Below, one piece after another: positions 8,511-48,922 of a DNA stretch of 64,000 bases; position 1 is the first letter of the stretch; the number at the start of each line of letters is the position of its first letter. The stretch lies in the NCBI RefSeq assembly GCF_035084215.1, contig NC_090327.1, forward strand, positions 141,546,001-141,610,000. Direction: 5' to 3'. The position numbers and the translations under genes were made by a program. Under the pieces are notes generated by a model. The model worked only from the letters and a program-made list of their open reading frames with translations. It searched no databases and was not told where the DNA came from. This DNA comes from Heptranchias perlo. Lineage: Eukaryota.

Positions 8511-8547
8511 TTACCTGACGAAGGAGGAAGCCTCCGAAAGCTTGTAG
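8511..8547 (+). ncRNA. Minimal type I hammerhead ribozyme motif
   Basis: TTAC-CTGACGA-A-GGAGG/AAG/CCTCC-GAA-AGCT-T-GTAG. Confidence 0.62.
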
Positions 8548-8601
8548 ATTTCAAATAAAAATTGTTGGACTACAACTTGGTGTTGTAAAATTGTTTACAA
8601 T
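8513..8601 (+). mobile_element. 89-bp Penelope-like terminal fragment with 9-bp TSD
   Basis: Flanked by tttaaaatt (8504-8512 and 8602-8610); absent from copy B, which shows a single empty site near 40800. Confidence 0.8.
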
Positions 8602-8696
8602 TTTAAAATTCTAGTAATTGATTTAGGGTATATAGTCAATACTGAGGAATGTAAGGAATCGTACAACACCAGGTTATAGTTCAACACATTTGAAAA

Positions 8697-8733
8697 TCAC
8701 AAGCTTTCGGAGATTATCTCTTTCGTCAGATGT
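8697..8733 (-). ncRNA. Hammerhead motif, degenerate stems
   Basis: Minus strand: ACAT-CTGACGA-A-AGAGA/TAA/TCTCC-GAA-AGCT-T-GTGA. Confidence 0.45.
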
Positions 8734-9663
8734 GTGAAAGGTTCTCAAGTCGCATATCTTATATTAGGCTGGGACACGATCACACCAATCAGACAGGTTA
8801 GCCACGGAAAACAGTACATCCCAGTATACTGAATACACAATGGGTCGGATTACACAGACAAAGAGAGAAAGAGACCTGAAAGGCAGAGAGAGAGAGAGAA
8901 TGTCCAGTTGTATTAAAAACAGATTAAATTTTTTTTCCTGCTGGTGGGGTTATGTGTAGCGTGACATGAACCCAAGATCCCAGTTGAGGCCATCCTCATG
9001 GGTGCGGAACTTGGCTATCAATTTCTGCTCGACGATTTTGTGTTGTCGTGTGTCTCAAAGGCCACCTTGGAGAACGCTCACCCGAAGATCGGTGGCTGAA
9101 TGCACTTGACTGCTAAAGTGCTCCCCAATTGGGAGCATCCTTTCCTGCCCAGGAGCATGGTACATTGGCGAGACCATGCAGACACTGCGACAACAGATGA
9201 ACGGACACCGCGCAACAATCGCCAGACAGGAGGGTTCCCTCCCAGTCGGGGAACACTTCAGCAGTCAAGGACATTCAGCCACCGATCTTCGGGTAGGCGT
9301 TCTCCAAGGCGGCCTTCGAGACACACGACAACGCAAAATCATCGAGCAGAAATTGATAGCCAAGTTCCACACCCATGAGGACGTCCTCAACCGGGAACTT
9401 GGTTTCATGTCACGCTACACGTAACCCCACCAGCAGGAAAAAAAAAGTCATCTGTTTTTAATACAACTGGACATTTTCTCTCTCTCTCAGCCTTTCGGGT
9501 CTCTTTCTCTCTTTGTCTGTGTAATCTGACCCATTGTGTAATCAGTATACTGGGATGTACTGTTTTCCGTGGCTAACCTGTCTGAACACCAACGACACAT
9601 TTGATTGGTGTGATCGTGTCCCAGCGTAATATAAGATATGCGATTTGAGAACCTTTCACTCAC

Positions 9664-9700
9664 TCACCTGACGAAGGAGATAATCTCCGAAAGCTTGTGA
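9664..9700 (+). ncRNA. Minimal type I hammerhead ribozyme motif
   Basis: TCAC-CTGACGA-A-GGAGA/TAA/TCTCC-GAA-AGCT-T-GTGA: perfect stems I and II, palindromic stem III. Confidence 0.72.
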
Positions 9701-9791
9701 TTTTCAAATAAAACTGTTGGACTATAACCTGGTGTTGTAAGATTCCTTACATTTGTCCACCCCAGTCCATCACCGGCATCTCCACATCATG

Positions 9792-9960
9792 AATACTGAG
9801 GAAGACTGCGACAAAATAAATTTGCAGGATGGCCGTGTAAATGTCCATTGAATTTTAGTATAGAAAAGTGTGAGGTGGTGCATTTTGCCTTTGATAATGT
9901 ATCTAAGGAGGCCACATACTGCTTGGAAAATAAGAGTCTAAATGGGGTAGAGGAGCAATG
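9792..9960 (+). mobile_element. CR1 RT fragment
   Basis: NFSIEKCEVVHF..LNGVEEQ; continuous with ~8615-8649 across the PLE insertion. Confidence 0.7.
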
Positions 9961-10227
9961 TAAACCATGTCCTGAGAAATCAGAGAGAAATACTGTGCAA
10001 TGTACAGTAAAATATAATGGAGCAAATTCACAACTATCGAATGAGCAAAACATAAACTTTATTATGAATCAATTGTCTTTATTTTCACTATCAAAATGTG
10101 CAAAAATGCGATTGTAAAAGTTGCAGACAGAAACTTTCCTCACATTGCACATTGTCCTGTTTCTGTAACCACGACGGATAATGTGAATTTGTTCCGCTCT
10201 TTTACAGTTCTCGCTAACGTCCAGTTG

Positions 10228-10455
10228 AAGTCAGTCTCTGGTACTGTGTATGAAAGTGGGGTTTATTCTGTATCTGTCAGTCTCTGGTACTATGTCTGAG
10301 TTTGGGATTCATCTGTATCTGTAAGTCTCTGGTGCTGCATCTGAGTGTGGGATTCATTCTGTATCTGCCATTCTCTGCTACTTTATCTCAGTGTGGGATT
10401 CAATCTGTAATTAAGTCTCTGAGACAGTGTGAAAGGCTGGATTCATTCTGTATTT
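10228..10455 (-). repeat. 46-bp satellite, reverse orientation
   Basis: gtgggattcattctgtatctgtcagtctctggtac units. Confidence 0.8.
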
Positions 10456-11379: not shown

Positions 11380-11702
11380 CGGAGCTGCGACCGAGTTCGA
11401 AGTGACGTCAGGAATCAGATCGGGACGCGACACAGGGGAGGCACCTGATTGGTGAGTAGGTTCAGGTGAGTATTTCTACTTATCGACAGTAACTGAAGTA
11501 AAAGGAAAGGGAAGGTCTGCAGGTCTTATAGGAAGTAGCGTTTATTTTTTAGTGAATCAAGGTCCCTAGTGTAGTTAACATTCTCCAAATTGAGAACAAT
11601 TTAAAGGAGTAAACTCCTTAAAGGGAGTGGTAAGTAGTTTTTCTTTCCTTTTTTTTTCTCTTGACATTGTAGTTGTTTTTAAGCTAATTTAAGGGTTAAG
11701 TC

Positions 11703-12650
11703 ATGGCAGGAGATCCCAGCGCCGTGTCATGTTCCTCTTGTGGGATGTGGGAATTCAGGGCTCCTTCCTGTATCCCTGATTCCTTCACCTGCGGGAAGTG
11801 TGTCCAGCTGCAGCTATTGTTTGACCGCTTGACGGCTCTGGAGCTGCGGATGGACTCACTTTGGAGCATCCGCGATGCTGAGAAAGTCGTGGATAGCACG
11901 TTCAGTGAGTTGGTCACACCGCAGATAAAAATTACTGAGGGAGATAGTGAATGGGTGACCAACAGACAGAAGAAGAGTAGGAAGGCAGTGCAGAGGTCCC
12001 CTGCGGTCATCTCCCTCCAAAACAGGTATACCGTTTTGGATACTGTTGGCGGAGATGGCTCACCAGGGGAAGGTGGCAGTGGCCAGGTTCATGGCACCGT
12101 GGCTGGCTCTGCTGCACAGGAGGGCAGGAAAAAGAGTGGCAGAGCTATAGTGATAGGGGACTCGATTGTAAGGGGAATAGACAGGCGTTTCTGCGGACGC
12201 AACCGAGACTCCAGGATGGTATGTTGCCTCCCTGGTGCAAGGGTCAAGGATGTCTCGGAGCGGCTGCAGGACATTCTGGAGGGGGAGGGTGAACAGCCAG
12301 TTGTCGTGGTGCATATAGGCACCAACGATATAGGTAAAAAACAGGATGAGGTCCTACAAGCTGAATTTAGGGAGTTAGGAGTTAAACTAAAGAGTAGGAC
12401 CTCAAAGGTAGTAATCTCAGGATTGCTACCAGTGCCACGGGCTAGTCAGAGTAGGAATGACAGGATAGCTAAGATGAATACGTGGCTTGAGAGATGGTGC
12501 AAGAGGGAGGGATTCAAATTCCTGGGCCATTGGAACCGGTTCTGGGGGAGGTGGGACCAGTACAAATTGGACGGTCTGCATCTGGGCAGGACTGGAACCA
12601 ATGTCCTAGGGGGAGTGTTTGCCAGTGCTGTTGGGGAGGGTTTAAACTAA
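11703..12650 (+). CDS. CR1 ORF1p: zinc finger/leucine zipper plus SGNH esterase domain (315 aa)
   Basis: CxxC..CxxC then heptad leucines; GDS, GTND and DGLHL esterase blocks. Confidence 0.9.
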   Translation: MAGDPSAVSCSSCGMWEFRAPSCIPDSFTCGKCVQLQLLFDRLTALELRMDSLWSIRDAEKVVDSTFSELVTPQIKITEGDSEWVTNRQKKSRKAVQRSPAVISLQNRYTVLDTVGGDGSPGEGGSGQVHGTVAGSAAQEGRKKSGRAIVIGDSIVRGIDRRFCGRNRDSRMVCCLPGARVKDVSERLQDILEGEGEQPVVVVHIGTNDIGKKQDEVLQAEFRELGVKLKSRTSKVVISGLLPVPRASQSRNDRIAKMNTWLERWCKREGFKFLGHWNRFWGRWDQYKLDGLHLGRTGTNVLGGVFASAVGEGLN

Positions 12651-15598
12651 TGTGGCAGGGGGATGGGAACCGATGCAGGAAGTCAGTGGGAAATAAAGTG
12701 GTGACAGAAACAAAAGGCAGTAAGGGAGAGTGTACAGAACATGACCGGACAGATGGTCTGAGAAAGCAGGGCAAAGACCAAGGGAAGACTAGATTAAACT
12801 GCATTTATTTCAATGCAAGAAGTCTGATGGGCAAGGCAGATGAACTCAGGGCATGGATGGGTACATGGGACTGGGATGTTATAGCTATTACTGAAACATG
12901 GCTAAGGGAGGGGCAGGACTGGCAGCTCAATGTTCCAGGGTACAGATGCTATAGGAAAGATAGAGCAGGAGGTAAGAGAGGAGGGGGAGTTGCGTTCTTG
13001 ATTAGGGAGAACATCACGGCAGTAGTGAGAGGGGATATATCCGAGGGTTCGCCCACTGAGTCCATATGGGTAGAACTGAAAAATAAGAAGGGAGAGATCA
13101 CTTTGATAGGATTGTACTACAGACCCCCAAATAGTCAACGGGAAATTGAGGAGCAAATATGTAAGGAGATTACAGACAGCTGCAAGAAAAATAGGGTGGT
13201 AATAGTAGGGGACTTTAACTTTCCCAACATTGACTGGGACAGCCATAGCATTAGGGGCTTGGATGGAGAGAAATTTGTTGAGTGTATTCAGGAGGAATTT
13301 CTCATTCAGTATGTGGATGGCCCGACTAGAGAGGGGGCAAAACTTGACCTCCTCTTGGGAAATAAGGAAGGGCAGGTGACAGAAGTGTTAGTGAGGGATC
13401 ACTTTGGGACCAGTGATCATAATTCCATTAGTTTTAAGATAGCTATGGAGAAGGATAGGTCTGGCCCAAAAGTTAAAATTCTAAATTGGGGAAAGGCCAA
13501 TTTTGATGGTATTAGACAGGAACTTTCAGAAGTTGATTGGGAGAGTCTGTTGGCAGGCAAAGGGACGTCTGGTAAGTGGGAGGCTTTCAAAAGTGTGTTA
13601 ACCAGGGTTCAGTGTAAGCACATTCCTTATAAAGTGAAGGGCAAGGCTGGTAGAAGTAGGGAACCTTGGATGACTCGGGAGATTGAGGCACTAGTCAAAA
13701 ATAAGAAGGAGGCATATGACATGCATAGGCAGCTGGGATCAAGTGGATCCCTTGAAGAGTATAGAGATTGCCGGAGTAGAGTTAAGAGAGAAATCAGGAG
13801 GGCAAAAAGGGGATATGAGATTGCTTTGGCAGATCAGGCAAAGGTGAATCCAAAGAGCTTCTACAAATACATAAAGGGCAAAAGGGTAACTAGGGAGAGA
13901 GTAGGGCCTCTTAAGGATCAACAAGGTCATCTATGTGCGGAACCACAAGAGATGGGTGAGATCCTGAATGAATATTTCACATCGGTATTTACGGTTGAGA
14001 AAGGCATGGATGTTAGGGAACTTGGGGAAATAAATAGTGATGTCTTGAGGAGTGTACATATTACAGAGAGGGAGGTGCTGGAAGTCTTAACGCGCATCAA
14101 GGTAGATAAATCTCCGGGACCTGATGAAATGTATCCCAGGACGTTATGGGAGGTTAGGGAGGAAATTGCGGGTCCCCTAGCAGAGATATTTGAATCATCC
14201 ACCGCTACAGGTGAGGTGCCTGAAGATTGGAGGGTAGCAAATGTTGTGCCTTTGTTTAAGAAGGGCGGCAGGGAAAAGCCTGGGAACTACAGACCAGTGA
14301 GCCTGACATCTGTAGTGGGTAAGTTGTTAGAGGGTATTCTGAGGGACAGAATCTACAGGCATTTGGAGAGGCAGGGACTAATTAGGAACAGTCAGCATGG
14401 TTTTGTGAGAGGAAAATCATGTCTCACGAATTTGATTGAGTTTTTTGAAGGGGTAACCAAGAAGATAGATGAGGGCTGTGCAGTAGACATGGTCTACATG
14501 GACTTCAGCAAAGCATTTGACAAGGTACCGCATGGTAGGTTGTTACATAAGGTTAAATCTCATGGGATCCAAGGTGAGGTAGCCAATTGGATACAAAATT
14601 GGCTTGACGACAGAAGACAGAGGGTGGTTGTCGAGGGTTGTTTTTCAAACTGGATGCCTGTGTCCAGCGGTGTGCCTCAGGGATCGGTGCTGGGTCCGCT
14701 GTTATTTGTTATTTATATTAATGATTTGGATGAGAATTTAGGAGGCATGGTTAGTAAGTTTGCAGATGACACCAAGATTGGTGGCATTGTGGACAGTGAA
14801 GAAGGTTATCTAGGATTGCAACGGGATCTTGATAAATTGGGCCAGTGGGCCGATGAATGGCAGATGGAGTTTAATTTAGATAAATGTGAGGTGATGCATT
14901 TTGGTAGATCAAATCGGGCCAGGACCTACTCCGTTAATGGTAGGGCATTGGGGAGAGTTATAGAACAAAGAGATCTAGGAGTACAGATTCATAGCTCCTT
15001 GAAAGTGGAGTCACAGGTGGATAGGGTGGTGAAGAAGGCATTCAGCATGCTTGGTTTCATTGGTCAGAACATTGAATGCAGGAGTTGGGATGTCTTGTTG
15101 AAGTTGTACAGGGCATTGGTGAGGCCACACTTGGAGTACTGTGTACAGTTCTGGTCACCCTATTATAGAAAGGATATTATTAAACTAGAAAGAGTGCAGA
15201 AAAGATTTACTAGGATGCTACCGGGACTTGATGGTTTGACTTACAGGGAGAGGTTAGACAGACTGGGACTTTATTCCCTGGAGAGTAGGAGGTTAAGGGG
15301 TGATCTTATAGAAGTCTATAAAATAATGAGGGGCATAGATAAGGTCGATAGTCAAAATCTTTTCCCAAAGGTAGGGGAGTCTATAACGAGGGGGCACAGA
15401 TTTAAGGTGAGAGGGGAGAGATACAAAAGGATCCAGAGGGGCAATTTTTTCACTCAAAGGGTGGTGAGTGTCTGGAACGAGCTGCCAGAGGCAGTAGTAG
15501 AGGCGGGTACAATTTTGTCTTTTAAAAAGCATTTGGACAGTTACATGGGGAAGATGGGTATCGAGGGATATGGGCCAAGTGCAGGCAATTGGGACTAG
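12650..15598 (+). CDS. CR1 ORF2p: AP endonuclease plus reverse transcriptase
   Basis: YFNARS, ITETW, GDFN, SDH endonuclease motifs; KSPGPD, YRPVSL, GVPQGSVLGP, FADD RT motifs. Frame is open from 12494; start is uncertain (ATG at 12650 or frameshift). Confidence 0.93.
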   Translation: MWQGDGNRCRKSVGNKVVTETKGSKGECTEHDRTDGLRKQGKDQGKTRLNCIYFNARSLMGKADELRAWMGTWDWDVIAITETWLREGQDWQLNVPGYRCYRKDRAGGKRGGGVAFLIRENITAVVRGDISEGSPTESIWVELKNKKGEITLIGLYYRPPNSQREIEEQICKEITDSCKKNRVVIVGDFNFPNIDWDSHSIRGLDGEKFVECIQEEFLIQYVDGPTREGAKLDLLLGNKEGQVTEVLVRDHFGTSDHNSISFKIAMEKDRSGPKVKILNWGKANFDGIRQELSEVDWESLLAGKGTSGKWEAFKSVLTRVQCKHIPYKVKGKAGRSREPWMTREIEALVKNKKEAYDMHRQLGSSGSLEEYRDCRSRVKREIRRAKRGYEIALADQAKVNPKSFYKYIKGKRVTRERVGPLKDQQGHLCAEPQEMGEILNEYFTSVFTVEKGMDVRELGEINSDVLRSVHITEREVLEVLTRIKVDKSPGPDEMYPRTLWEVREEIAGPLAEIFESSTATGEVPEDWRVANVVPLFKKGGREKPGNYRPVSLTSVVGKLLEGILRDRIYRHLERQGLIRNSQHGFVRGKSCLTNLIEFFEGVTKKIDEGCAVDMVYMDFSKAFDKVPHGRLLHKVKSHGIQGEVANWIQNWLDDRRQRVVVEGCFSNWMPVSSGVPQGSVLGPLLFVIYINDLDENLGGMVSKFADDTKIGGIVDSEEGYLGLQRDLDKLGQWADEWQMEFNLDKCEVMHFGRSNRARTYSVNGRALGRVIEQRDLGVQIHSSLKVESQVDRVVKKAFSMLGFIGQNIECRSWDVLLKLYRALVRPHLEYCVQFWSPYYRKDIIKLERVQKRFTRMLPGLDGLTYRERLDRLGLYSLESRRLRGDLIEVYKIMRGIDKVDSQNLFPKVGESITRGHRFKVRGERYKRIQRGNFFTQRVVSVWNELPEAVVEAGTILSFKKHLDSYMGKMGIEGYGPSAGNWD

Positions 15599-21145: not shown

Positions 21146-21173
21146 TCCTGTTAGTGATTTGATCTTGGTCGCT

Positions 21174-21561: not shown

Positions 21562-21637
21562 TTCCACAATCTCAGAAACACTTTCACAAAGAATGAAGAA
21601 ATCTTCCCGCACTCGCCCTTCTTATACCTTCTGGAGG

Positions 21638-22035
21638 AATGTAAGGAATCTTACAACACCAGGTTATAGTCCAACGGTTTTATTTGAAAATCACAAGCTT
21701 TCGGAGATTATCTCCTTCGTCAGGTGAGTGAGTGAATGAAAGGTTCTCAAATCGCATATCTTATATTAGGCTGGGAATCAAAGGTGTCGTTGGTGTTCAG
21801 ACAGGTTAGCCTCGGAAAACAGTATGTCCCAGTATGCTGAATACACAAGGGTCAAATTACACAGGCAAGGAGAGAAAGAGACCCGAAAGGCAGAGGGAGA
21901 GAATGTCCAGTTGTATTAAAAACAGATAACTTTTTTTTCCCGCTGGTGGGGTTACGTGGAGCGTGACATGAACCCAAGATCCCGGTTGAGGCCGTCCTCA
22001 TTGGTGCAGAACTTGGCTATCAATTTCTGCTCGAC
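21638..22035 (-). mobile_element. Penelope-like element 3' fragment inserted in the H2A promoter
   Basis: Reverse complement of ~9340-9752; lies between TATA (21621-21626) and CCAAT (~22052). Confidence 0.85.
21691..21727 (-). ncRNA. Minimal hammerhead ribozyme motif
   Basis: Reverse complement identical to 9664-9700. Confidence 0.7.
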
Positions 22036-22087
22036 TATAAGGTGAAATATGATTGGCTGTTGTGTCATTTCCGTTGATCGTGGGTTG

Positions 22088-24167: not shown

Positions 24168-25330
<1,163 letters not shown>

Positions 25331-28988: not shown

Positions 28989-30150
28989 GTAGATACATAA
29001 ATCCCAGTCCAAAATCACACCCACTGTTGCTTGAAATGCACTGCGTCAATCTCAAAATATTGCAGCCTTAGCTACAAACAAAATCGTAGATGGAACTGAC
29101 ACGCGGCACCCGATTGAAAGATACAGCATTAGCCCCAATAATATAACCCGAGATTCAACTTAAATAGCGAGCAGACCTTACACACGTTATGAGTTTAAAA
29201 GATGCTGAATTCATCCCAATTCTGTAACCTGAGATACAAATTACATACCAGTTCAAAATTCACGTACAGTATCAGTGAGAGATGCTGAAAGATAGTATAA
29301 CCTAAGATACAAAATTAGATACCAGTTCAGAAATCACTCATATTATGAAAATGAAAGTTACAATATCTTTTCGATTAGACCCAGAGCAACACATTACATA
29401 ACTGCAAACATCTCGTACAGTGACACCTGAAAGATACACTATCAGTTCCATTAGTGGAGACTGAACTACACATTACATACCGGTCCAATAATCTCATACA
29501 GCATCAGACTGAGCTACAGCATCAATTCCATTCGTGTTCACTGTGATACATAACATCATAGAAAATTTATGGCACAGAAGGAGGCCATTCGGCCCACCAT
29601 GTCCACTCAGCCCGAAAATGAGTGACCCAGCCTAATTCCACTTTCCAGCATTTGGTCCGTAGCCTTGTAAGTCACAGCACTTCAGGTGAACATCCAGGTA
29701 CTTTTTAAATGCGATGAGGGTTTCTGCCTCTACCACCCTTTCAGGCAGTGAGTTCCAGACCACCACCACCCTCTGGGTGAAAACAATTCTCCTCAGCTCC
29801 CCTCTAATCCTTCTACCAATCACTTTAAATCTATGCCCCCTGGTTATTGACCTCTCTGCTAAGGGAAATAGGTTCTTCCTATCCATTCCATCTCCCCACC
29901 TCATAATTTTGTACACCTCAATTGAATCACCCCTCTGTTCCAAAGAGAACAACTGCAGCCTATGCAATCTTTCCATATAGCTAAATTCCTCCAGTCCTGG
30001 CAACATCTTCATCAATCTCCTCTGTATCCTGTCTAGTGCAATTACATCCTTCCTGTAATGTGATGACCCGAACTGTCCACAGTACTCAAGCTGTGACATA
30101 ACTCGTGTTTTATACAGTTCCAGCATAACCTCCCTGCTCTTATATTCTAT

Positions 30151-30276
30151 TGTAAACAATTTTACAACACCAAGTTATAGTCCAGCAATTTTATTTTAAA
30201 TTCACAAGCTTTCGGAGATTTTCTCCTTCCTCAGGCAAATGTTTCAAGATCTCCTTGAAGCCTACGCATTTATACA
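30151..30276 (-). mobile_element. Short Penelope-like terminal fragment with TSD
   Basis: Same gttgtaaaattgtttaca end as 8513-8601; flanked by tatattctat (30141-30150 and 30277-30286). Confidence 0.78.
30202..30238 (-). ncRNA. Minimal hammerhead ribozyme motif variant
   Basis: TTGC-CTGAGGA-A-GGAGA/AAA/TCTCC-GAA-AGCT-T-GTGA; changes fall at N7, loop II and stem I wobble pairs. Confidence 0.62.
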
Positions 30277-30669
30277 TATATTCTATATTCTATGCCTCAG
30301 CTAATAAAGGAAAGTATTTCATATGCCTTCTTAACCACCTTATCTACCTGTCCTGCTACCTTCAGGGATCTGTGGACATGCACTCCAAGGTCCCTCACTT
30401 CCTCTACACCCCTCAGTATCCTCCCATTTTTTGTGTACTCCCTTGCCTTTTTAGCCTTCAACAGGTTTAATACTGGTACAAAAGGCACACAGGTTGTCTC
30501 ATTAAAACCTACAGCAAGAAATTCTGAAGTGCATCATATTTACAAATTAATTACAAGGTGGAAAACCACTTATACGTTCATATATTAAAGATAGAGTTTC
30601 AAACACAAAATTGTAAACTGAGTTCCAATTAAAACTCAGATATGGAATTATTCCTGACTTGTGCACTGT

Positions 30670-32600: not shown

Positions 32601-32832
32601 CTGTATAGTGCATTTAGCAACTATTGAAGTAACAATCAATCAGTCAGCTTGTGTTGGAGATTGACCCGTGTAACAGAAATGCAGGCTGAGAGAACGTTGT
32701 CTGATTGATGAACTGTAAATATTAAAACAATGAATTCCATATTAAATAATAGCTGGTGGTTGCATTTCAAACATTCCTGGTATTTCTCTGTGCCTCCACT
32801 CGGTCTAACGCCACGGTTTGCGGTCAGCCTAA

Positions 32833-37250: not shown

Positions 37251-38535
37251 GACCCAGGAACAGGTCAGGGATTGTAAAATAGATGGGACTCCACCAGTGC
37301 CTAACGCTGTAATCCAGACTGACTTTACAATCTGTAACTATTAAATCAGATGTTTCCATCCCTGCTGTTTCTCTCGGTATCTTTTGATGATAAAGTGGGC
37401 GGCTGTAAAATGAGCCAATGGGTTCTGTTCATTAATGGCACCTTTACTGATAAACTGAACGTGTGACTCCGAAATGGAGAGGGGTGTTCTCAACCCAATC
37501 CCGGAGAAACGTTGGGAAGTGGAGTCGGGTGTGTTTACTAGGACAGTGTAGGATTAATATCAGACAGCAACAGTCCCAGATTAATTTAATCAGAGTGAAA
37601 CACTCAATCACAGATTAAGATCGAACGGTTTTTAGCTGTATGAGCGTAGTGTGATGGACACTGGCCGTTCTACCATTGATGTCCGAGGCACTAACAGTGC
37701 ATTTAACTAACTCCAGCACTGAGGGTGAGCCTCAATCGGTGGGATGTAAAACCCAGGGTGGATGTAATGCTCACGCGGATCAAATGAAGTTTCAGTTCAT
37801 TGTCACTCTCCAGCTGTACTCACAGAGACTGTTTCACTGGAACTCGCAATAATAGATCCAAAGGCTGATGATTAAAACCTATATTCCATGAGATATTAAA
37901 GCCTGAGAAATCCGTTTAAAGTGTTTGGTTCTTTCACTCAGCGCCAGAATCAGAAGCAGTGGGACACATTAGTGTCACATTCACTGCGGTACTCGGAACT
38001 GACACAGGAACAGGCTCAGGGACAGAATAAATCCCTCACTCACATCCAATAACAGACACATTTCACTCACCCTGATTCAGCAATCGCTGAGACAACCAGC
38101 TTCTGTTATACAAATCTGGGTAACAGAAGACACACCGAGTGAGTGTTGTCCGATGATGTTACTGTAAATAACACTAACGAAAATGGCCAGAACACAATAG
38201 AAAGCATCTTATAGACGATGGTCAAACGTCCCTGGTATTTCTGTATCCCACCCGCCCAGTTCACTGACAATTATGATTATTTTGGCCTCATTTCCTGTAA
38301 AAGCTGCAAATTTCAAACTATTGGAGGTTGGCGACATCTAGTGTCAGGAAACGAGTACTGTAACAGACCGATATGGATTAGTCATGTTTAACAAGGTATT
38401 TATTGTTCGTTTCGAACTGACGGGAGGCAGTTAGTTCCAGAATTGGAATCAGGTCTTCTGAGTCACAGGGGCATGAAATCGAGACAGGGAGAGTGAAATG
38501 TCCAGATCTGAAACATGTCGTCTTATTGTCAAATT

Positions 38536-38577
38536 GAAGCCCTTTCATAGATACAGTGGGTGGCCCTAAAAAGAGCC
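38536..38577 (-). terminator. Histone stem-loop and HDE, H2A pseudogene copy B
   Basis: GGCTCTTTTTAGGGCC-ACCCA. Confidence 0.87.
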
Positions 38578-38602
38578 TGTGTGTTATCAGATTTTGGTCG
38601 CT

Positions 38603-38942
38603 TTACTTGCTCTTGGAGCTCAGTGCTGGACTTCTTCGGCAGCAGCACGACCTGGATATTCAGCAGCACCCCTCCCAGCAGCTTGTTGAGCTCCTCGTCG
38701 TTGCGGACGGCCAGCTGCAGGTGTCTGGGAATGATGCGGGTCTTCTTGTCGCGGGCCGCGTTACCGACCAACTCGAGGATTTCAGCCGTTCGATACTCGA
38801 GCACAGCACCCACACATTCAGCATCGTTATCCTTTCGCAGGAGGCTGTGAACACGGCCCACAGAGAACTGCAGTCCGGCCCGGAATGAGCGAGACTTGGC
38901 CTTGGCCCGAGCTTTACCGCCGGTTTTTCCTCTTCCAAACAT
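38603..38942 (-). pseudogene. H2A: Histone H2A pseudogene, copy B
   Basis: Same three deletions and frameshift as 6308-6647, with different missense changes. Confidence 0.88.
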
Positions 38943-39924
38943 TTGCACAAACACCACGAACACTTTTACAAAGAATGAAAAAAAATCGTCCGCACTCGCC
39001 CTTCTTATACCTTCTGGAGGAATACAGTGGGAGCAATTGTGATTGGCCCATCTGTTTTCAATTTCATTGGGCCCTTCGTTCAACCAGAGAGCTGTTGAAT
39101 TCGCCAATCCATCGACGACAATGAGAAAAGGGCGGAAATACTGGCCCCAATTATCAGACCTGAAACGGTTTTTGAAATCTAAAAAGCCCGCCAATATATT
39201 TGTAACACAAGAAGCAGATTTAGTAAATAATGTCGCGTTAATGCAAAGGTTTAAAAATCTCTCTCCTTTTAATCTGTTATTCCACATTTCCTGTCACAAC
39301 TTTGATACTCTTTCACAACCTGGTTAAAATTCGGCATCATTCTCCCTTTGCTTTCAATCGGGCGGGAATAAAGCCCCAATTAGTAGAGGGTCAGATTCCT
39401 GATATATCTTTGTAAAAAAAATAAACACAGATAGTGGATTGATCCCAGTTCACAGGAATTGCTGCGGGTTTTAAGTCGGAGCCGAGACTCCAGGTGTAAT
39501 AGTCGAACAGAGACAGTCTTTAAACTATTCTGTTCTCGTTATGAACTCACTTTCGGTGTTGCTATATTACACAGGGTTGCGGTTCATAAACTGATATTCC
39601 TGAATAATGAACAAACAAACGTGAAAAGGAGAAAGAAATGACTGATGTCTAATCCACCGCCCATAAGGCGGCTCTGAAGGCGCAGATGCGGAGGATGGGC
39701 GCAATACGAACGGGAATGAGAGGATCAGGGCCACGTCTTTGTTATTGGGACTCAATTGAACAGCGACACATACATTAAACCAGACAGTGATTATGAGAAT
39801 CTTCCATATATCAACACCAATGACAAAAGCACGAGGGTTGTAATAAGACAGTTAGTATCAAACTATCTAAAGCAAAATGTTTCCATACAGATATCGATAC
39901 AGCGTCTTCAGAGAGACTGTGGGT

Positions 39925-39940
39925 GGCTCTTAAAAGAGCC
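39925..39940 (-). terminator. Histone stem-loop of H2B copy B
   Basis: GGCTCTTTTAAGAGCC. Confidence 0.92.
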
Positions 39941-39977
39941 TTTGTGTTCAGGGTTTTTATCAGTTGATGGTGGAGTT

Positions 39978-40352
39978 TTACTTGGAGCTGGTGTACTTGG
40001 TCACCGCCTTTGTCCCTTCCGACACGGCGTGCTTGGCCAGTTCTCCGGGCAGCAGCAGGCGCACGGCCGTCTGGATCTCCCGGGAACTGATGGTGTGGCG
40101 TTTATTATAATGGGCCAGGCGGGAAGCCTCACCCGCGATACGCTCGAAAATATCGTTCACAAAGGAGTTCATGATGCTCATGGCCTTGGAGGAGATGCCG
40201 GTGTCGGGGTGAACCTGCTTCATCACTTTGTAGATGTAGATGCCATAACTCTCCTTCCTCGACTTTCTCCGCTTCTTGCCGCCCTTGGCTGGTGCTTTAT
40301 TCAGGGTTTTCTTGGCGCCCTTCTTGGGAGCTGCTTTCTTGTCCTCAGGCAT
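39978..40352 (-). CDS. H2B: Histone H2B, copy B, intact
   Basis: Protein identical to 7682-8056; stem-loop and promoter (40407-40561) retained. Confidence 0.97.
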
Positions 40353-40847
40353 TTTCCAAACTCAATTTCAGATCCAGAAATGAACCAAATCCGCTCCGAG
40401 CTCGGATTAAATAGGCTGACGTCATCGCCCCATGCTAATGAGGGATGGGTGAAGGCAATGATTGTGATTGGACGAGCGCGAGTGACGTCACAATACTGTT
40501 TCATTAAACGGTCCGATTGGTTTCTGACGATATCCAATCAGATTTAGTACCTGCCGCCAATCACAAACACGCTCACGCTGCACATTGTCCGGTTTGAGCA
40601 ATTTGTTCTGAACTGTTGCAGTTCTGCTTCAGGCCAGTAGATGTCCCCAAACCCCGGGACACTGAAGTTTGCAGATGAGGGAGGGACAGAAGAGAAACGA
40701 ATTCTTCACATGATATTGCACGAGTGGGATTAGAAAAAAATGCGAATGGAGACGAGCTGCAAGTACATTTTGTTAGACCAAGCATTAGTTGTAACATTGT
40801 TTAAAATTCTAGTAATTGATTTAGGGTATATAGTCAATACGGAGGAA

Positions 40848-41534
40848 TGTAAGGAATCTTACAACACCCAACTGGGAGCATCCTTTCCTGCCCAGGAGCA
40901 TGGTACATTGGCGAGACCATGCAGACACTGCGACAACAGATGAACGGACACCGCGCAACAATCACCAGACAGGAGGGTTCCCTCCCAGTCGGGGAACACT
41001 TCAGCAGTCAAGGACATTCAGCCACCGATCTTCGGGTAGGCGTTATCCAAGACGGTCTTCGAGACACACGACAACGCAAAATCATCGAGCAGAAATTGAT
41101 AGCCAAGTTCCACACCCATGAGGACGGCCTCAACCGGGTACTTGGGTTCATGTCACGCTACACGTAACCCCACCAGCAGGAAAAAAAAAGTCATCTGTTT
41201 TTAATACAACTGGACATTCTCTCTCTCTCTCAGCCTTTCGGGTCTCTTTCTCTCTTTGTCTGTGTAATCTGACCCATTGTGTAATCAGTATACTGGGATG
41301 TACTGTTTTCCGTGGCTAACCTGTCTGAACACCAACGACACATTTGATTGGTGTGATCGTGTCCCAGCGTAATATAAGATATGCGATTTGAGAACCTTTC
41401 ACTCACTCACCTGACGAAGGAGATAATCTCCGAAAGCTTGTGATTTTCAAATAAAACTGTTGGACTATAACCTGGTGTTGTAAGATTCCTTACATTTGTC
41501 CACCCCAGTCCATCACCGGCATCTCCACATCATG
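40848..41534 (+). mobile_element. Penelope-like remnant, copy B (inverted arm deleted)
   Basis: GIY-YIG C-terminus at 40919-41167; only ~20 bp of the inverted arm remain. Confidence 0.86.
41407..41443 (+). ncRNA. Minimal hammerhead ribozyme motif
   Basis: Identical to 9664-9700. Confidence 0.7.
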
Positions 41535-41971
41535 AATACTGAGGAAGACTGCGACAAAATAAATTTGCAGGATGGCCGTGTAAATGTCCATTGAATTTTA
41601 GTATAGAAAAGTGTGAGGTGGTGCATTTTGCCTTTGATAATATATCTAAGGAGGCCACATACTGCTTGGAAAATAAGAGTCTAAATGGGGTAGAGGAGCA
41701 ATGTAAACCGTGTCCTGAGAAATCAGAGAGAAATACTGTGCAATGTACAGTAAAATATAATGGAGCAAATTCACAACTATCGAATGAGCAAAACATAAAC
41801 TTTATTATGAATCAATTGTCTTTATTTTCACTATCAAAATGTGCAAAAATGCGATTGTAAAAGTTGCAGACAGAAACTTTCCTCACATTGCACATTGTCC
41901 TGTTTCTGTAACCACGACGGATAATGTGAATTTGTTCCGCTCTTTTACAGTTCTCGCTAACGTCCAGTTGA

Positions 41972-44835
41972 AGTCAGTCTCTGGTACTGTGTATGAAAGT
42001 GGGGTTTATTCTGTATCTGTCAGTCTCTGGTACCATGTCTGAGTTTGGGATTCATCCTGTATCTGTAAGTCTCTGGTGCTGCATCTGAGTGTGGGATTCA
42101 TTCTGTATCTGCCATTCTCTGCTACTTTATCTCAGTGTGGGATTCATTCTGTAATTAAGTCTCTGAGACAGTGTGAAAGGCTGGATTCATTCTGTATTTT
42201 TATTTCAGTTTACAGTATCGTATTTGAAACTGTATCTTTAATATTTTAACGTATATACAGTTTTTCGTCGAGTATTTAATTTGTAAATATGGATACACTT
42301 TTCGATTTTCTTTAATCAAACAACGTGTGAGTTTTGGAGTAGTATTACATCTTAATCGCTGAACTCTATTGTGAATGACAGTACCTTTCAATCTGTTCGC
42401 GGTGAAATTTTTGGACTGGTTCGCAATATGTAGCTCAGTCTGCACTATTGGAATTGATAATGTATCTATCAGTCTGATACTTAATGAGATTTTTGGAATA
42501 ATATGTAATGTGTAGCTCACTGTGCTCTAATGGAATTGATACTGTATCTATCAGTCTGACATGGTATGAGATTTTTGGATTGGAATGTGATGTGTAGCTC
42601 AGGCTGTGCTAATACTGTATCTTCCATTATGATCATTTATGAGATTTTTGGACTGGTGTGTAACATGTAGCTCAGTCTGTACTAATGGAATTGGTATTGT
42701 GTCATTGAGTCTTTTTTCGTATGAGATTGTTGGACTGCTATATAATGTGTGGCTCAGTCTGCACTAATGGAATTGATACTGTATCTCTCAGACTAACATT
42801 GTATGAGATATTCGGACTGGTATGTAATGTGTAACACAGTCTGTGCAAATAGAATTGCTACTGTATCTTCCAGTCTGATCATTTATGAGATTTTTGGACT
42901 CGTATGAATGGTGTAGCTCAGTCTGTACCAATAGAATTGATACTAAATATTTCAGTATTATACGATATGAATATTTAGGAATGTAAACAATGTGTAGCTC
43001 AGTCTGCACTAATGGAATTGATATTGTATCATTCAATCTGATGCCATGAGATTTTTGGACTATTATGTAATGTGTAACACTGTCTGCAGTAATGTGACTG
43101 TGAGATTCATTATGTATCTGTCTGACTGTGGTACTGTGTGATTCATTCTGTATCTGTCAGTATGTGGTACTGTGTGTGGGTGTGGGATTCATTCTGTATC
43201 TGTCAGTCTCTGGTACTGTGTGTGAGTGTGGGATTCATTCTGTTCCTGTCAGTCTCTGGCACCGTGTGTAAATTTGAGATTTATTCTTTATCTGTCAGTC
43301 CCTGGTACTGTGGGTGAGTGAGGGATTAATTCTGTTCCTGTCAGTCCCTGTTGCTGTACGTGAGTGAGACATTCATTCCATATGTATCGATCTTCAATCT
43401 CTGATGTATGTGAGTGATATAAATTCTGTATCTGTCAGTCACTGGTACATTGTTTAAGTGTGTGATTCATTCTCAATCTGTCAGTCACAGGTACATTGTG
43501 TGAGTGTGGGATTCATTCTGTATCTGTCAGTCACTGGTATATTGTGTGACTGTGGGATTCATTCTGTATCTGTCAGTCACTGGTACATTGTGTGAGTGTG
43601 GGATTCATTCTATATGTCAGACTCTGGCACTCTGAGTGGAGAGATTCATTCTTTATCTCTATGTAATTTGTACCTCTGTTTACAGTACGGCATTCAAAAC
43701 TGTATCTTTAATTCCTTAATGTATGAATAATTTTTCCCTGTGTTTAATTGGTAATGATATACTTGAAAATGTAATGCTGTAGTTTATAATCAGAGAACAT
43801 GTGCACTTTTGGAGTACTATTAAATCTGTATCTTAGTGAACCCAACTGTCATGACGACATTTTTGAACTTGTATTTGGAGTGTAGCTCAGTCTGCATGAA
43901 TGGAATACTGCATATTTCAGTCTGAATCTGTATCAGTTTTTTGTAGTAGTATATAATGTGTAGCTCAGTCTGCATTAATGGACTTCATACTGTATCTTTA
44001 AATCTGACAGGATGAGATTTTTGGACTGCTACGTAATGTGTAACTCAGCCAGCATTAATGTAGGTGACTGTGAGATTCATTTTGTATCTCTCAGTCTCTG
44101 GTACTGCGTTTAAATGTGGGATTCATTCTGTATCTGTCAGACTCTGGTATTGTGTGTGAGCGTGGGATTCATTCTGTATCTTGTCAGTAGTGTGTGTGCG
44201 AGTTTGCGATTCATTCTATATAGGCAGTCTCTGACACTGTGAGTGTAGGTTTTTTATGTGTCTGTTCGTCACTAACACTGTATATGGGTGTTGAATTCAT
44301 TCTATATATGCAGTTTCTCGTACTGTTATTGTGGGATTCATTCTGTATCTGTCAGACTCTTATACTGTATGAGTGTGGGATTCATTCTATATCTGTCACT
44401 CTCTGGTACTCCATGTGAGTGTGGGATTCATTCCATATCATTCAGTATTTAATAGTGTGTGGGTGTTGAATTCATTCTATATATGCAGTTTCTCATACTG
44501 ATAGGGTAGTATTCATTCTGTATCTGTCAGTCTCTGGTACTGTGTTAGTGTGGGCTTCATACTTTACCTTTCATCTCTGATACTTTATGAGACTGTGGGT
44601 TTTAATCAGTATGTGTCACTCCTTGTTACTATATGTCAGTGTGGGATTCATGCTGTATTTGTCATCTCTGGTACCATACGTGAATGTGGGATTCACTCTG
44701 CGTCTGTCAGTCTCTAGTACTGTATGAGAGTTTGGGATTCCTTCTGCATCTGTCAGTTTCTGGTACGGTATGTGATTGTGGAATTCATTCAGTGTCTGTG
44801 TGTCTCTGGTACTGTATCTGAGTGTGAGATTCATT
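41972..44835 (-). repeat. Alternating 46-bp and ~82-bp satellite blocks, copy B
   Basis: Paralog of 10228-17925 without the CR1. Confidence 0.85.
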
Positions 44836-45571
44836 GTATGTAATTATTCTCTCAGACTACATTATGGCACTCAATACTGTAGCTTTAATATCTGAACATT
44901 TAAATTGTTTTTCTCAATATTTAATAGGTAAATATGGATACACATTAGGATTTGAAGCTGTAGGTTTTAATCAGGTAATTTCTGTGTTTTTTGGACTAGT
45001 ATTAAATCTGTACCTCTGTGAATACTATTGTGAATGATAATATATCTTTCAAACTAGGGTAATATTTTTGAATTGATCAAAAATGTGTAGCTCAATCTTT
45101 ACAAATGGAATTGATACTGTATCTTTCAATCCAATATTGTATGAGACTTTTGTCTGGTATTTAATGTATATCTCAGTCTGTTCTAATAGAACTGATATTC
45201 TATCTTACAATCTCATGCTATGAGTGCATTCGAAATTGGTATCAAATTTGTTTCTCAGGTTACACTGTCTTTCAGCATTTCTCAATTTGATACTCTGCAT
45301 GAATTTTTGTCTTGTGCAATGGCATTCAAATTGCATACACTATTCAGATCGATACTGCATGTATTAAACTCACATGTTTGAGAGTTTTGGGCTAGCATTC
45401 AATTGGAATCTCCAGGTACATTATTGGGATTCATTCTATACCTTTCAATCAGGTGCCATGTGTGATTTATATCAGGTATTTAATTCGTAGCTAAAGTTGC
45501 CCTATTGTGAGATTGACACAGTGTCTTTCAACATGAAAGCGTGATTTTGGAATGGGATTTTTTTTATCTAC

Positions 45572-46792
45572 CTGTCAGCAGTACTGAGTTGGGATGAACT
45601 GGAAACAGTGTCTGCCTCACCTGCTCTGCTTGACCATTGGATTGAAAATGTGTCTCTGGAATTTGGGATCAGCGTGGGACTGACTACTTCTGCTGTCTGA
45701 GACTGTGGAACTGATGACCTGTCTGTGTCTCCGTGCTCTGTGGGTGATAATGTACCTACTGTGTGTGAGGAGGAGCTGGCTGCACTGTTCCTTGTGCCTC
45801 AGGTGGAGGAAACTTCACATTTATTCTGGGTCATTCAAGGATTTGCCTGCAGGGAGAAAAGTATCTCTTGTAACTCAAGAACAGGTGAGGTAGAAAATAC
45901 AAAAGTGATCAGTTTAATATCTATTAATAATCATTTTTCATATTCACAAATGAAAACCAGCGATACAGTGTCAGTGTCTGACTCCACTGCTGTACTGCAG
46001 CACTCAGCTTCTGCATACCAGGTGTGCTGGGCTGTTTTACAACAATGTAGTGACATCCAGACACAAGCAACCCCCTGTCCTGGTCCATAAATGGGACGAC
46101 CCGATGGGGCAGTGACCTTTGTGCATTTCAGGTTTCTAATCCCCTCTCCAATTGGACTAACCGTTCAACCAAAACCAAACAGCCGCTGTTTAAAATGTGT
46201 CCTTCACACTTCTCACCTGATGCCTGCAATAGATGCTCTTTGTATAACTCCCCACATCCTTACTGTCCGGCTCTGTTTCCACTGTTCACTGTCCAATAAC
46301 AACAAACAGGGTGAGACTGGACCTAAACCAGGAACATTCACTACTGGTTTGGGGAGAGAAAGCAGCAATGATTTTAAATAGCAGGTTCTTCCCATTCTGT
46401 CTCCCTTCCCCTGGACACACCCTGTACACACACAGCCCCAGAATGGTCTCTCCCTTCCCCGCTCACTCCATGTTCCGGGACCAGTTCCTGATCCACTCCG
46501 CCTCTTACAAACAGCCCCCGGACTCCCCCTGAACTTACCCCGGTCTCAATGCCGATCTCTGAGCCCATCTGCGGACACGGTCCCGGAGCGATGAGCTGCT
46601 GTAACGAGGCTGCTGTTTGCTCCCTTACCCCGGGGCCGTGATCTCTCCATTCCCGCCTGTTTTAAACCATCTTCTTCCACTCACTGAGGGAATGGCCCCA
46701 CAGGCCGAGCAGGGGGAGGGGAGCGCGCATGCGCTCTTCTGTTCACTTATAATGAGCGCTGGGGGCGGGGCTGAAGGACGCATGCGCAGATA
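45572..46792 (-). pseudogene. Promoter plus three-exon module, copy B
   Basis: Paralog of 18660-19870. Confidence 0.5.
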
Positions 46793-47439
46793 TCAGGTTT
46801 AATTCAGAATACAAAAATCGATGGAAACTTTCCCCAGTTGGAATTTTTCAGTCTGAGCAAAGGAAGTGGGTCTGGGGGAAAGGTCAGAGGGAATGGCGGG
46901 TGGAGAATGCTGGAGATGGAGCTGGAAGATCAGAGGCCGCTCTCCGCTCTGTCCGTCACTCTGACTCCTCCCTTCCTGCTCTCCCTGATTCTTCTCCCAT
47001 CTGGAACCAAAGCGGGCAGGTGGACTTTAAATACGGTTTACTTGTTAACAAGACGAAAGGCGAGTAATATTTCTGATCTCCTGGGCATCAGGCAATTTAC
47101 TGTTACTTGTTTCTGTACAGAGTTACTTTTCAGTGATTCCCCAGTGTGTTTGATGCATTATATAAATAATCCAACAAAATTCAACAGAAATGGAGCAAAG
47201 CGCTGAATTCCACAGATGTATAAAGGTTAGTCGAGCAGTTATCGAGATGCTTTGAGAGCCCAACATGGTAAGTAGTGTAAATAAATACAATGAATGTGGT
47301 AACGTGTGGACTGGGGTGCATAAGTTACTGTTTAAAGTAGCGGTCTGTGGTCGCTGCCCGACTCCAGTCCCATTAATACCCCCTCGTCTGCAACAAGCCA
47401 AAGAAAGGCAGCTTAAAGCAATACTGTGGCCTAAAAAAT

Positions 47440-48070
47440 GTTCTATACAAGTTTAACATAACTTCTTTGCTTTTCAATTCTATCCCTCTAGAAATGAACC
47501 GCAGTGCATGATTTGCCTTTTTATGGCCTTGTTAACCTGCGTCGCTACTTTCAGTGGTTTGTGTATCTTTACCCCTAGATCCCTTTGCTCTTCTATCCCG
47601 TTTCGACTCTTATTATCCAAGCAGTAAGTGATCTTCTTATTCTGTAAGTTTATTAATATCCTCTTGCATTTTGACACATTCTTCCTTTCTATTAACTACA
47701 CCGCCCAATGTGGTGTCGTAAGCTAATTTTGAAATTGTATTTCCGATTCACGGATGCAAACCGTTAATGTAAACTGTGAACAACAGTGGTCCCAGCAACA
47801 TTTCCTGTGGAACACCACTTCCCAGTCCTTTCCAGTCTGAGTAACTACCATTAACCCCTATTCTCTGTTTCCTGTTTTGGAGCCAGCTTGCTATCCATTC
47901 TGCCACCTGACCCTGACTCCACATGCTTTGAACTTAGCCATCAGTCTAAAATGCGGTACCTTATCGAAGGCCTTGTGAAAATCCAAATATATTACATTTG
48001 CTGCATTAATCTTGTCTACCCTTTCAGTTACTTCATCATTTATTTCAATAAGGTTGGTCCTGTCCTCTTC
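47440..48070 (-). mobile_element. Degenerate CR1 fragment, copy B
   Basis: Paralog of 20510-21145. Confidence 0.75.
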
Positions 48071-48096
48071 CTGTCAGTGATTTGATCTTGGTCGCT

Positions 48097-48484
48097 TTAC
48101 TTGCTCTTGGTGCTCCCAGCGCTTTCCTTCCATAGCAGCACGGCCTGGATATTAGGCAGCACCCCGCCCTGAGCGATGGTCACCCCTCCCAGCAGCTTGT
48201 TGAGCTCCTCGTCGTTGCGGACGGCCAGCTGCAGGTGTCTGGGGATGATGCGGGTCTTTTTCTTGTCGCGGGCCGCGTTACCGACCAGCTCGAGGATTTC
48301 AGCCGTCAGATACTCGAGCACAGCAGCCAGATAGACCGGGGCTCCGGCACCCACACGTTCAGCATAGTTCCCCTTTCGCAGGAGCCTGTAAACACAGCCC
48401 ACAGGGAACTGCAGTCCGGCCCGGGATGAGCGAGACTTGGCCTTGGCCCGAGCTTTACCGCCGTTTTTTTTCTCTTCCAGACAT
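48097..48484 (-). pseudogene. H2A: Histone H2A pseudogene, copy B
   Basis: ATG TCT GGA AGA GAA AAA AAA CGG CGG TAA; additional deletion between the TATA box and the ATG. Confidence 0.9.
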
Positions 48485-48524
48485 TTGCACAATCTCACAA
48501 ACACTTTCTTATACCTTCTGGAGG

Positions 48525-48922
48525 AATGTAAGGAATCTTATAACACCAGGTTATAGTCCAACGGTTTTATTTGAAAATCACAAGCTTTCGGAGATTATCT
48601 CCTTCGTTAGGTGAGTGAGTGAATGAGAGTTTCTCAAATCGCATATCTTATATTCGGCTGGGAATCAAAGGTGTCGTTGGTGTTCAGACAGGTTAGCCAC
48701 GGAAAACAGTATGTCCCAGTATGCTGAATACACAAGGGTGAAATTACACAGGCAAGGAGAGAAAGAGACCCGAAAGGCAGAGGGAGAGAATGTCCAGTTG
48801 TATTAAAAACAGATAACTATTTTTTCCCGCTGGTGGGGTTACGTGGAGCGTGACATGAACCCAAGATCCCGGTTGAGGCCGTCCTCATTGGTGCGGAACT
48901 TGGCTATCAATTTCTGCTCGAC
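48525..48922 (-). mobile_element. Penelope-like 3' fragment, copy B; hammerhead core mutated (CTAACGA, 48578-48614)
   Basis: Paralog of 21638-22035. Confidence 0.85.

What the first reader, a model, noticed from the sequence alone, without database searches (positions are those of the whole stretch)
8511..48614. Seven minimal hammerhead ribozyme motifs in Penelope-like termini, with structure-preserving variation
Seen: stem I-CUGAnGA-A-stem II-GAA-AGCU-U-stem I' at 8511+, 8697-, 9664+, 21691-, 30202-, 41407+ and 48578- (core mutated). Three variants differ at tolerated places: stem II GGAGA/UCUCC vs GGAGG/CCUCC (compensatory), loop UAA/AAG/AAA, N7 C or G, and G-U wobbles in stem I. Known: PLE terminal repeats carry minimal type I hammerheads whose palindromic stem III needs dimerisation. 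Unusual here: a 4-nt AGCU stem III, an extra A after the core and a CUU cleavage triplet. Caveat: two stem I bases at 8511-8512 come from the host TSD.
Basis: partly seen in the sequence, partly recalled or inferred. Interest (0 to 1): 0.7.

Follow-up and report, generated by a model that had tools for sequence, protein, structure and literature searches.

The report
Shark Penelope hammerheads behind transcription start
These are real copies of the tiny hammerhead self-cutting RNA motif already known from Penelope-like jumping genes, present tens of thousands of times in this shark genome, and many short copies begin about 30 bases after a TATA-like box just ahead of the motif, so they were likely copied from the uncut front end of the element's RNA.

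Summary
All seven motifs are at the stated places, but they are five independent motifs, and two (8697, 48578) are damaged. They lie in the terminal repeats of a Penelope-like element (PLE) with an intact 902-aa RT/GIY-YIG-type frame elsewhere in this shark genome. The exact motif occurs 70,510 times (control 0). The three 'unusual' traits are the published PLE minimal-hammerhead consensus; a turtle motif has the same extra A, AGCU and U17 (PMC4209133). Across subfamilies, core bases stay fixed while N7, loop 2 and stem partners vary, with two-sided changes in both stems. Cleavage was not tested.

Added here: 43 of 208 copies start 29-31 nt after a conserved TATA box, whatever its distance to the ribozyme (0 of 5000 permutations). 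Starts at the cut site show no spike (173, against 133 one base on). Templates were likely uncut RNA with the hammerhead in its first ~40 nt. The scan noted this start-site pile-up before in other shark-type genomes. Verdict: new member of a known kind.

The parts
8504..8512 (.). Left target-site duplication (9 bp) of the short insertion; right copy 8602-8610; empty site at 40800-40808 in the duplicated segment
8513..8601 (+). 89-bp PLE end fragment (subfamily 'B1', no tail), beginning inside stem I
8511..8547 (+). Minimal hammerhead motif, intact: core from 8515, predicted cut after 8543
8648..9135 (-). Inverted 5'-truncated arm (subfamily 'A', no tail) of a head-to-head insertion spanning 8648-9791, TSD 12 bp at 8638-8649 and 9792-9803
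8697..8733 (-). Minimal hammerhead motif, damaged (G10.1 to A; 3-bp stem I)
9146..9418 (+). C-terminal 91 codons of the PLE frame (endonuclease end), 89% identical to the intact 902-aa protein of L317
9630..9635 (+). TATA-like box, conserved 34-47 nt before CUGA across subfamilies
9658..9660 (+). Inferred transcription start (TATA+29 to +31), where 5' ends of short genomic copies pile up
   Evidence: inference, no RNA 5'-end data
9664..9700 (+). Minimal hammerhead motif, intact: stem I 9664-9667/9697-9700, CUGACGA 9668-9674, extra A 9675, stem II 9676-9688, GAAA 9689-9692, GC, U 9695, U17 9696
9701..9791 (+). Rest of the element's 5' UTR with a small hairpin and the ~36-nt 'tail', ending at the ATG (9789-9791) that opens the frame in full-length copies
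21632..22038 (-). 5'-truncated subfamily A copy just upstream of a histone H2A-like frame; no TSD found
21691..21727 (-). Minimal hammerhead motif, intact
30149..30279 (-). 131-bp end fragment (subfamily 'C'), 100% identical to the intact tandem element in L317; TSD 10 bp at 30141-30150 and 30277-30286
30200..30240 (-). Minimal hammerhead motif, intact, stem I of 6 pairs with two G-U
40889..41535 (+). Segmental-duplicate of the 9146-9791 arm
41407..41443 (+). Minimal hammerhead motif, duplicate of 9664
48519..48925 (-). Segmental-duplicate of the 21632-22038 copy
48578..48614 (-). Minimal hammerhead motif with core G5 changed to A, duplicate of 21691

Best explanation
The seven motifs are copies of the minimal hammerhead in the terminal repeat of a very abundant Penelope-like retrotransposon, where it sits just behind a TATA-like box and likely forms the first ~40 bases of the element's RNA as a likely slow self-cutter that would need a second copy or the element's protein. 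Shown: the order TATA, hammerhead, ~92-nt UTR, ATG, 902-aa frame, repeated every 3,081-3,086 bp in intact tandems; fixed core with changing stems across subfamilies; 5' ends of short copies at TATA+29 to +31; 3' ends at the ATG or ~36 nt before it. Inferred: RNA polymerase II starts at TATA+30; the reverse transcriptase starts inside the RNA near the ATG and runs off the 5' end of the uncut RNA, which makes the 90-150-bp motif-bearing stubs and their head-to-head pairs. Cleavage, when it happens, would cut a minority of transcripts at both repeats, removing the capped ~38-nt leader and the read-through end to give unit-length RNA. The dispersed stubs are by-products, not host ribozymes.
For: Element: window 9146-9418 is 89% identical to the end of a 902-aa open frame with RVT_1 at E=3e-10; intact tandems in L317-L319; nearest named proteins are from sharks, up to 92%. 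Motif: 70,510 exact matches, control 0. In 100 copies picked by a downstream 19-mer only, 83 span the motif without indel; core positions vary 0-5%, N7 42%, the closing pair 42-45%, two loop bases 19-31%; 62 of 83 keep core, both stems and palindrome. Pair counts on 48 distinct rows: 89.4% paired (shuffles 85.8, 0/500), covariation score 0.218 (0/500), slid controls 28-52%; one subfamily changes A-U to G-C in stem II and U-A to C-G in stem I together (3 copies). Start site: 43 of 208 5' ends at TATA+29-31, 9.1% per nt against 0.15-0.4% upstream of TATA+17; best 3-nt window 43 by TATA but 29 by CUGA; 0 of 5000 permutations; 32 of 163 after one event per inverted pair, 0 of 5000; 1,131 copies of one subfamily start at one base. 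3' ends of 99 copies: 36 at -38 to -34 and 43 at -1 to +7 from the ATG. Literature: PAc hammerhead cleaves only with protein, uncut RNA is the main template, and RT starts internally at two sites that give the tail (PMC11167929).
Against: No cleavage or RNA 5'-end data for this family; only contigs were available. The double hammerhead (-17.7 kcal/mol) is no better than two open monomers (2 x -9.3) and far above an alternative dimer (-28.2). Two pair measures are not significant (pairs with two-sided change 39/500, further pair types 101/500), and related rows inflate the others. The subfamilies are close (frames ~93% alike), so two-sided changes are few events. The 208 copies were the first listed by motif patterns on contigs C1-C3, and each was assigned its TATA by best-scoring reference. 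An extra cap-derived G was not seen: 24 of 30 start-site copies are inverted junctions, and of the 6 others 3 have G and 2 abut the TSD directly. What cleavage is for remains inferred.
Confidence: 0.7

Rival explanations
1. Published circle model: the two hammerheads pair through AGCU, cut out a unit-length RNA that is ligated to a circle, and the circle is the template for long and tandem copies.
For: Proposed in PMC4209133. Intact head-to-tail units of 3,081-3,086 bp exist. A religated circle restores the motif, so long copies that span it fit: 70 of 208 reach at least 141 nt upstream.
Against: A circle has no 5' end and cannot give the pile-up at TATA+29-31. Read-through linear RNA from tandems explains long copies equally. 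PAc needs no cleavage for insertion in vitro. It can hold for long copies alongside the best explanation.
Confidence: 0.25
2. The motif is kept as a structure or promoter-proximal protein-binding element and is effectively never cut in the animal.
For: No spike of 5' ends at the cut site: 173 at +1, 133 at +2, 69 at -3, roughly 160-210 at +3; 7 of 30 +1 loci are inverted junctions through stem I's own complementarity. Minimal hammerheads cut poorly in vitro. Naiad PLEs spread without them. Overlap with the start region could itself fix bases.
Against: The fixed bases are exactly the catalytic ones while N7 between them is free; the same pattern holds from cnidarians to reptiles; the related PAc motif does cut with protein.
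Confidence: 0.2
3. The 5'-end pile-up marks reverse-transcriptase stalling or template switching at an RNA structure or microhomology, not the transcription start.
For: 104 of 208 ends are inverted junctions, where microhomology shapes the break; subfamilies A, B1 and C have a hairpin of -4 to -6 kcal/mol ending near TATA+32.
Against: The peak follows the TATA, not the ribozyme, over spacings of 34-47 nt, also in non-inverted short copies (14 of 27, 0 of 5000). The subfamily with most ends there has a hairpin of only -1.6, while the stronger stem II (-5 to -7 when intact) is passed freely.
Confidence: 0.12
4. The motif is a chance or decayed look-alike carried along in a repeat.
For: No Rfam hit; weak folding z-scores.
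Against: Full match to the published consensus in the expected place of a PLE; position-specific constraint in an unbiased sample.
Confidence: 0.02

Closest known systems
[quoted passage not shown]
   Same: CUGANGA plus one extra base, G10.1-C11.1, GAAA-NN-U with palindromic 15.2-16.2 and no loop 3, short stem I, U-rich 5' and AU-rich 3' flanks; the Chrysemys picta row has the same extra A, GC palindrome and U17; opposite-strand pairs 100-700 bp apart; mostly single motifs in truncated copies.
   Different: No shark is in the part of the alignment read, and 'shark' has no hit in the supplement text searched (file 1 not searched). 70,510 exact motifs against about 4,000 (coelacanth) and 9,000 (Xenopus). 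Stem II is short (4-5 bp) and subfamilies are close, not highly variable.
Neptune-type endonuclease-positive PLEs (Craig et al. 2021, PMC8557442; passages read)
   Same: One frame with RT, DKG motif, CX4CxxC linker and C-terminal GIY-YIG-type end; partial tandems, inverted 5' copies, 30-40-bp tail at one end.
   Different: Clade not tested by tree; Nematis also has a linker zinc-finger motif. Pfam did not report the endonuclease in the 902-aa protein.
PAc, Poseidon element of Anolis (Frangieh et al. 2024, PMC11167929; parts 1-2 of 4 read)
   Same: Two 3' ends one tail apart; protein-assisted hammerhead; uncut RNA as main template; no reads ending at the cut site.
   Different: In PAc the frame starts inside the hammerhead and RT starts 111-118 nt into it; here the ATG is 92 nt after the cut site and the tail ends at the ATG. 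That paper's parts read do not map a start site.
Adineta vaga Penelope pLTRs (Arkhipova et al. 2013, PMC3846280; passages read)
   Same: Putative TATA box followed by an initiator-like TCACT in the pLTR; head-to-head inversions with palindromic junctions; tail on one arm.
   Different: No link drawn there, in the passages seen, between copy 5' ends and the start site; an antisense template is proposed for the inversions.
Non-LTR retrozymes (PMC7229834, passages; bioRxiv 10.64898/2026.07.22.740005, abstract and Results part 1 of 2)
   Same: Type I hammerheads in high copy (126,247 in axolotl); related to PLE pLTRs; reported in one chondrichthyan.
   Different: Retrozymes are non-coding tandem repeats of 170-400 nt with canonical motifs; these are dispersed, variably truncated ends of a coding PLE.

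Membership tests
PLE minimal hammerhead (min-HHR) | Core CUGANGA ... GAAA ... UH | tested here: met
   6 of 7 window motifs (48578 has G5A); 70 of 83 unbiased copies
PLE minimal hammerhead (min-HHR) | Extra base between 9 and 10.1; G10.1-C11.1 pair | tested here: met
   A in 83 of 83; pair G-C 78, G-U 5 of 83; broken in window copy 8697
PLE minimal hammerhead (min-HHR) | Palindromic 15.2-16.2, no loop 3 | tested here: met
   GC in 83 of 83
PLE minimal hammerhead (min-HHR) | Stems I and II with compensatory change between families | tested here: met
   89.4% of cells paired, 5 of 10 pairs with two-sided change; two of five measures not significant; closing pair often broken
PLE minimal hammerhead (min-HHR) | Location in the pLTRs of a PLE | tested here: met
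   one motif per repeat in intact tandems L317-L319
PLE minimal hammerhead (min-HHR) | Self-cleavage after position 17, as dimer or with protein | not testable with these tools
   no assay; energy model neutral; no genomic spike at the cut site
Endonuclease-positive PLE | Single frame with RT and C-terminal GIY-YIG endonuclease | tested here: met
   902-aa frame, RVT_1 E=3e-10; VVYLI...WYIGE motif by inspection; many homologues carry PF01541, recalled as GIY-YIG; Pfam itself gave no endonuclease hit on this protein
Endonuclease-positive PLE | Partial tandems, inverted 5' copies, 30-40-bp tail, TSDs | tested here: met
Neptune clade | CX2-5CxxC linker before the endonuclease | tested here: met
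   CHGNLCKTC in the frame; definition
Neptune clade | RT groups with Neptune references in a tree | not tested
   no named reference set was fetched
Non-LTR retrozyme | Non-coding tandem repeat of 170-400 nt | tested here: not met
   copies are truncated ends of a coding element; 116 of 357 collected copies have the endonuclease end upstream; tandem unit is 3.08 kb

The most novel reading that the evidence does not exclude
The hammerhead is a cap-removal switch: it occupies the first ~40 nt of the capped PLE transcript, so cutting sorts RNA away from the capped pool that is translated and copied, and the ~70,000 stubs are a fossil CAGE library showing internal-start, run-off reverse transcription on uncut RNA, with both target strands primed to give the one-tail head-to-head pairs.
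Probability: 0.3. Interest if true: 0.6.

Novelty: new member of a known kind. Interest (0 to 1): 0.32.

Why it matters
The motif itself is ordinary for PLEs. Its role is an open question (PMC8557442, PMC11167929). This family offers an intact, young vertebrate element, tens of thousands of natural variants, and a precise prediction: the ribozyme starts 4-17 nt after the transcription start and the copied RNA is uncut. One 5'-RACE and one cleavage assay would test it.

Tried and rejected
Rfam scan: no hammerhead model hit at E<=1. Folding z-scores were uninformative. DNA search with the 30149-30262 copy returned nothing, a filter effect, since patterns find that variant. A search for other stem II families (501 matches, control 5) gave almost only single-copy changes without compensation in the 100 listed; my pattern could not see the G-C-rich subfamily later found. 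Cleavage footprint: no spike at +1; a small trace is not excluded because -3 is lower than +1 to +3 and flank filters differ. Cap-derived extra G: 46 of the 100 listed starts have G before them, but the 30 loci read show this is mostly inverted-arm sequence; inconclusive. RNA: 18 runs listed, four of one sample laid; contigs only, RNA status a guess, so no start, end or strand. Downstream pseudoknot: stems are nearly invariant, so no covariation support. Lunse et al. 2017 is not held; seen only as cited in PMC6765202. The claim that the start-site pile-up and a shark min-HHR census are not in print rests on searches of an incomplete library; the bioRxiv preprint's supplements and supplement file 1 of PMC4209133 were not seen and may list this family.
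Full report
Observation. A scan of both strands finds the motif at all seven places named. Five are intact. The window holds a ~32-kb segmental duplication, so 9664/41407 and 21691/48578 are duplicates: five independent motifs from four insertions. The 8513-8601 insertion has a 9-bp TSD and an empty site in the duplicate; its two stem I bases at 8511-8512 fall in the TSD but equal the family's own bases. Rfam has no hit and folding z-scores are weak. The exact pattern matches 70,510 times in the 3.25-Gb genome, control 0, and a downstream 19-mer 107,019 times.

The element. Window 9146-9418 encodes 91 residues 89% identical to the end of a 902-aa frame that is intact in tandem units of 3,081-3,086 bp (L317-L319). 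The frame has an RT domain, a DKG motif, a CX4CxxC linker and a GIY-YIG-like end, the layout given for Neptune-type PLEs in PMC8557442 (passages); the clade was not tested by tree. The nearest named proteins are from sharks. Each repeat reads TATA-like box, hammerhead, about 92 nt, ATG. Subfamilies share about 93% of the frame but differ in the UTR upstream of the motif. The window's 30149-30279 copy is 100% identical over 131 nt to the intact tandem element. 3' ends of 99 copies fall in two groups, 36 at -38 to -34 and 43 at -1 to +7 from the ATG: the known PLE tail.

Is it unusual? No. PMC4209133 (parts 1-2 of 4 read) defines the minimal motif without loop 3 and names the extra base at 9/10.1, the G10.1-C11.1 pair and the palindromic 15.2-16.2 as conserved. 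Its supplement (file 2, part 2 of 3) shows the turtle Chrysemys picta with the same extra A, GC palindrome and U17, and U17 in many rows. What differs is number: about 4,000 and 9,000 motifs were reported for coelacanth and Xenopus, while axolotl has 126,247 canonical ones.

Constraint on the structure. To avoid fixing the answer by pattern, I took the first 100 copies found by the downstream 19-mer alone. 83 span the motif without indel and 17 do not. Core positions vary 0-5%, N7 42%, the loop-closing pair 42-45%; 62 of 83 keep core, both stems and palindrome. For pair counts I aligned 45 of the 53 distinct rows (8 truncated in stem I were left out) plus 5 window copies: 89.4% of cells pair (shuffles 85.8, 0/500), covariation 0.218 (0/500), slid controls 28-52%; pairs with two-sided change (39/500) and further pair types (101/500) are not significant. 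Stem I shows the path C-G, U-G, U-A, and one subfamily of 3 sampled copies changes A-U to G-C in stem II and U-A to C-G in stem I. Rows are related, so these are few events. The double hammerhead evaluates at -17.7 kcal/mol, no better than two open monomers, in line with the low activity reported for this class.

Where copies begin. A TATA-like box lies 34-47 nt before CUGA in 89 distinct reference copies drawn from 116 frame-linked ones. Of 208 motif-bearing copies (first-listed hits), 43 start at TATA+29 to +31, 9.1% per nt against 0.15-0.4% upstream of TATA+17; 70 reach 141 nt or more upstream. The peak follows the TATA (43) better than the ribozyme (29), 0 of 5000 permutations; in 27 non-inverted short copies 14 against 10, also 0 of 5000; with one event per inverted pair, 32 of 163. 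One subfamily has 1,131 copies starting at a single base. Of 30 of these, 24 are head-to-head inversions, and all 6 pairs with both arms listed have one arm with tail and one without. A local hairpin does not explain the peak: it is -1.6 kcal/mol in the subfamily with most ends. TATA+30 is the usual polymerase II start distance (established knowledge), and PMC3846280 (passages) notes a TATA plus initiator in rotifer pLTRs; the Drosophila virilis element, by contrast, was found to have an internal TATA-less promoter (PMC2377424, passages).

Is there a trace of cutting? Copies starting exactly at the cut site number 173, against 133 one base on, 69 three bases before, and roughly 160-210 two bases on after removing subfamily variants from 1,335 by the 100 listed. 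7 of 30 cut-site loci are inverted junctions through stem I's own complementarity. There is no spike; a small trace is not excluded. An extra cap-derived G was not shown. RNA runs were contigs only.

Mechanism. Shown: anatomy, copy number, constraint pattern, end distributions. Inferred: transcription starts 4-17 nt before CUGA; the RT starts inside the RNA near the ATG, as shown in vitro for PAc (PMC11167929, parts 1-2 of 4), and runs off the uncut 5' end, giving stubs that are the 5' UTR. PAc's hammerhead cut only with protein and was not needed for insertion. I therefore take the motif as a slow, assisted cutter that would trim a minority of transcripts at both repeats, removing a capped ~38-nt leader. 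The circle model may hold for long copies; a non-cutting role is not excluded.

Earlier notes and verdict. I reached the start-site reading before calling search of earlier findings; several notes on other shark-type genomes say the same, and two report a cut-site trace that I do not see here. They are leads, not support. My literature searches found no paper mapping copy 5' ends to a PLE start site, but the library is incomplete and Lunse et al. 2017 was not held. Interest 0.32.

Noticed in passing
window 9719-9776 (+) and 281 copies in the loci: Downstream of the hammerhead, a 6-bp hairpin keeps its closing pair as A-U (166), G-C (98) or G-U (13) of 281, and the short 3' end of insertions lies at its base. 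Two further 6-bp pairings could form a pseudoknot around it but are nearly invariant. A candidate RT-start structure.
   Followed up: partly
window 21632-22038 and 48519-48925 (-): The PLE copy sits between a CCAAT-like box and the TATA-like box of a histone H2A-like gene whose frame is shifted near its start; no TSD found.
   Followed up: partly
window 1-22837 vs 32295-49723: A ~32-kb segmental duplication (96-99%) carrying histone H2A, H2B and H3-like frames with 3' stem-loops; a third copy lies upstream of the window (L003).
   Followed up: no
window 11700-15598 (+): A LINE with a 316-aa first frame and a 1,035-aa endonuclease-RT frame that looks intact; CR1-like is recalled, not tested.
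   Followed up: no
window 24168-25012 (-): A 33-bp tandem repeat interrupts a histone H3-like frame.
   Followed up: no
L317-L319 (G000:C1, 3.12-4.47 Mb): Several near-identical full-length tandem units with open 902-aa frames, including a head-to-head pair of full units in L318: the family is young and likely active.
   Followed up: partly
G000:C2:11430781-11430812 (L270): One different hammerhead-like match with another stem II and A17 among the 100 listed; fetched but not analysed.
   Followed up: no
L001-L060: Subfamilies with ~93% identical frames have unalignable stretches of UTR between the stop codon and the TATA box, suggesting promoter turnover as in other retrotransposons.
   Followed up: partly
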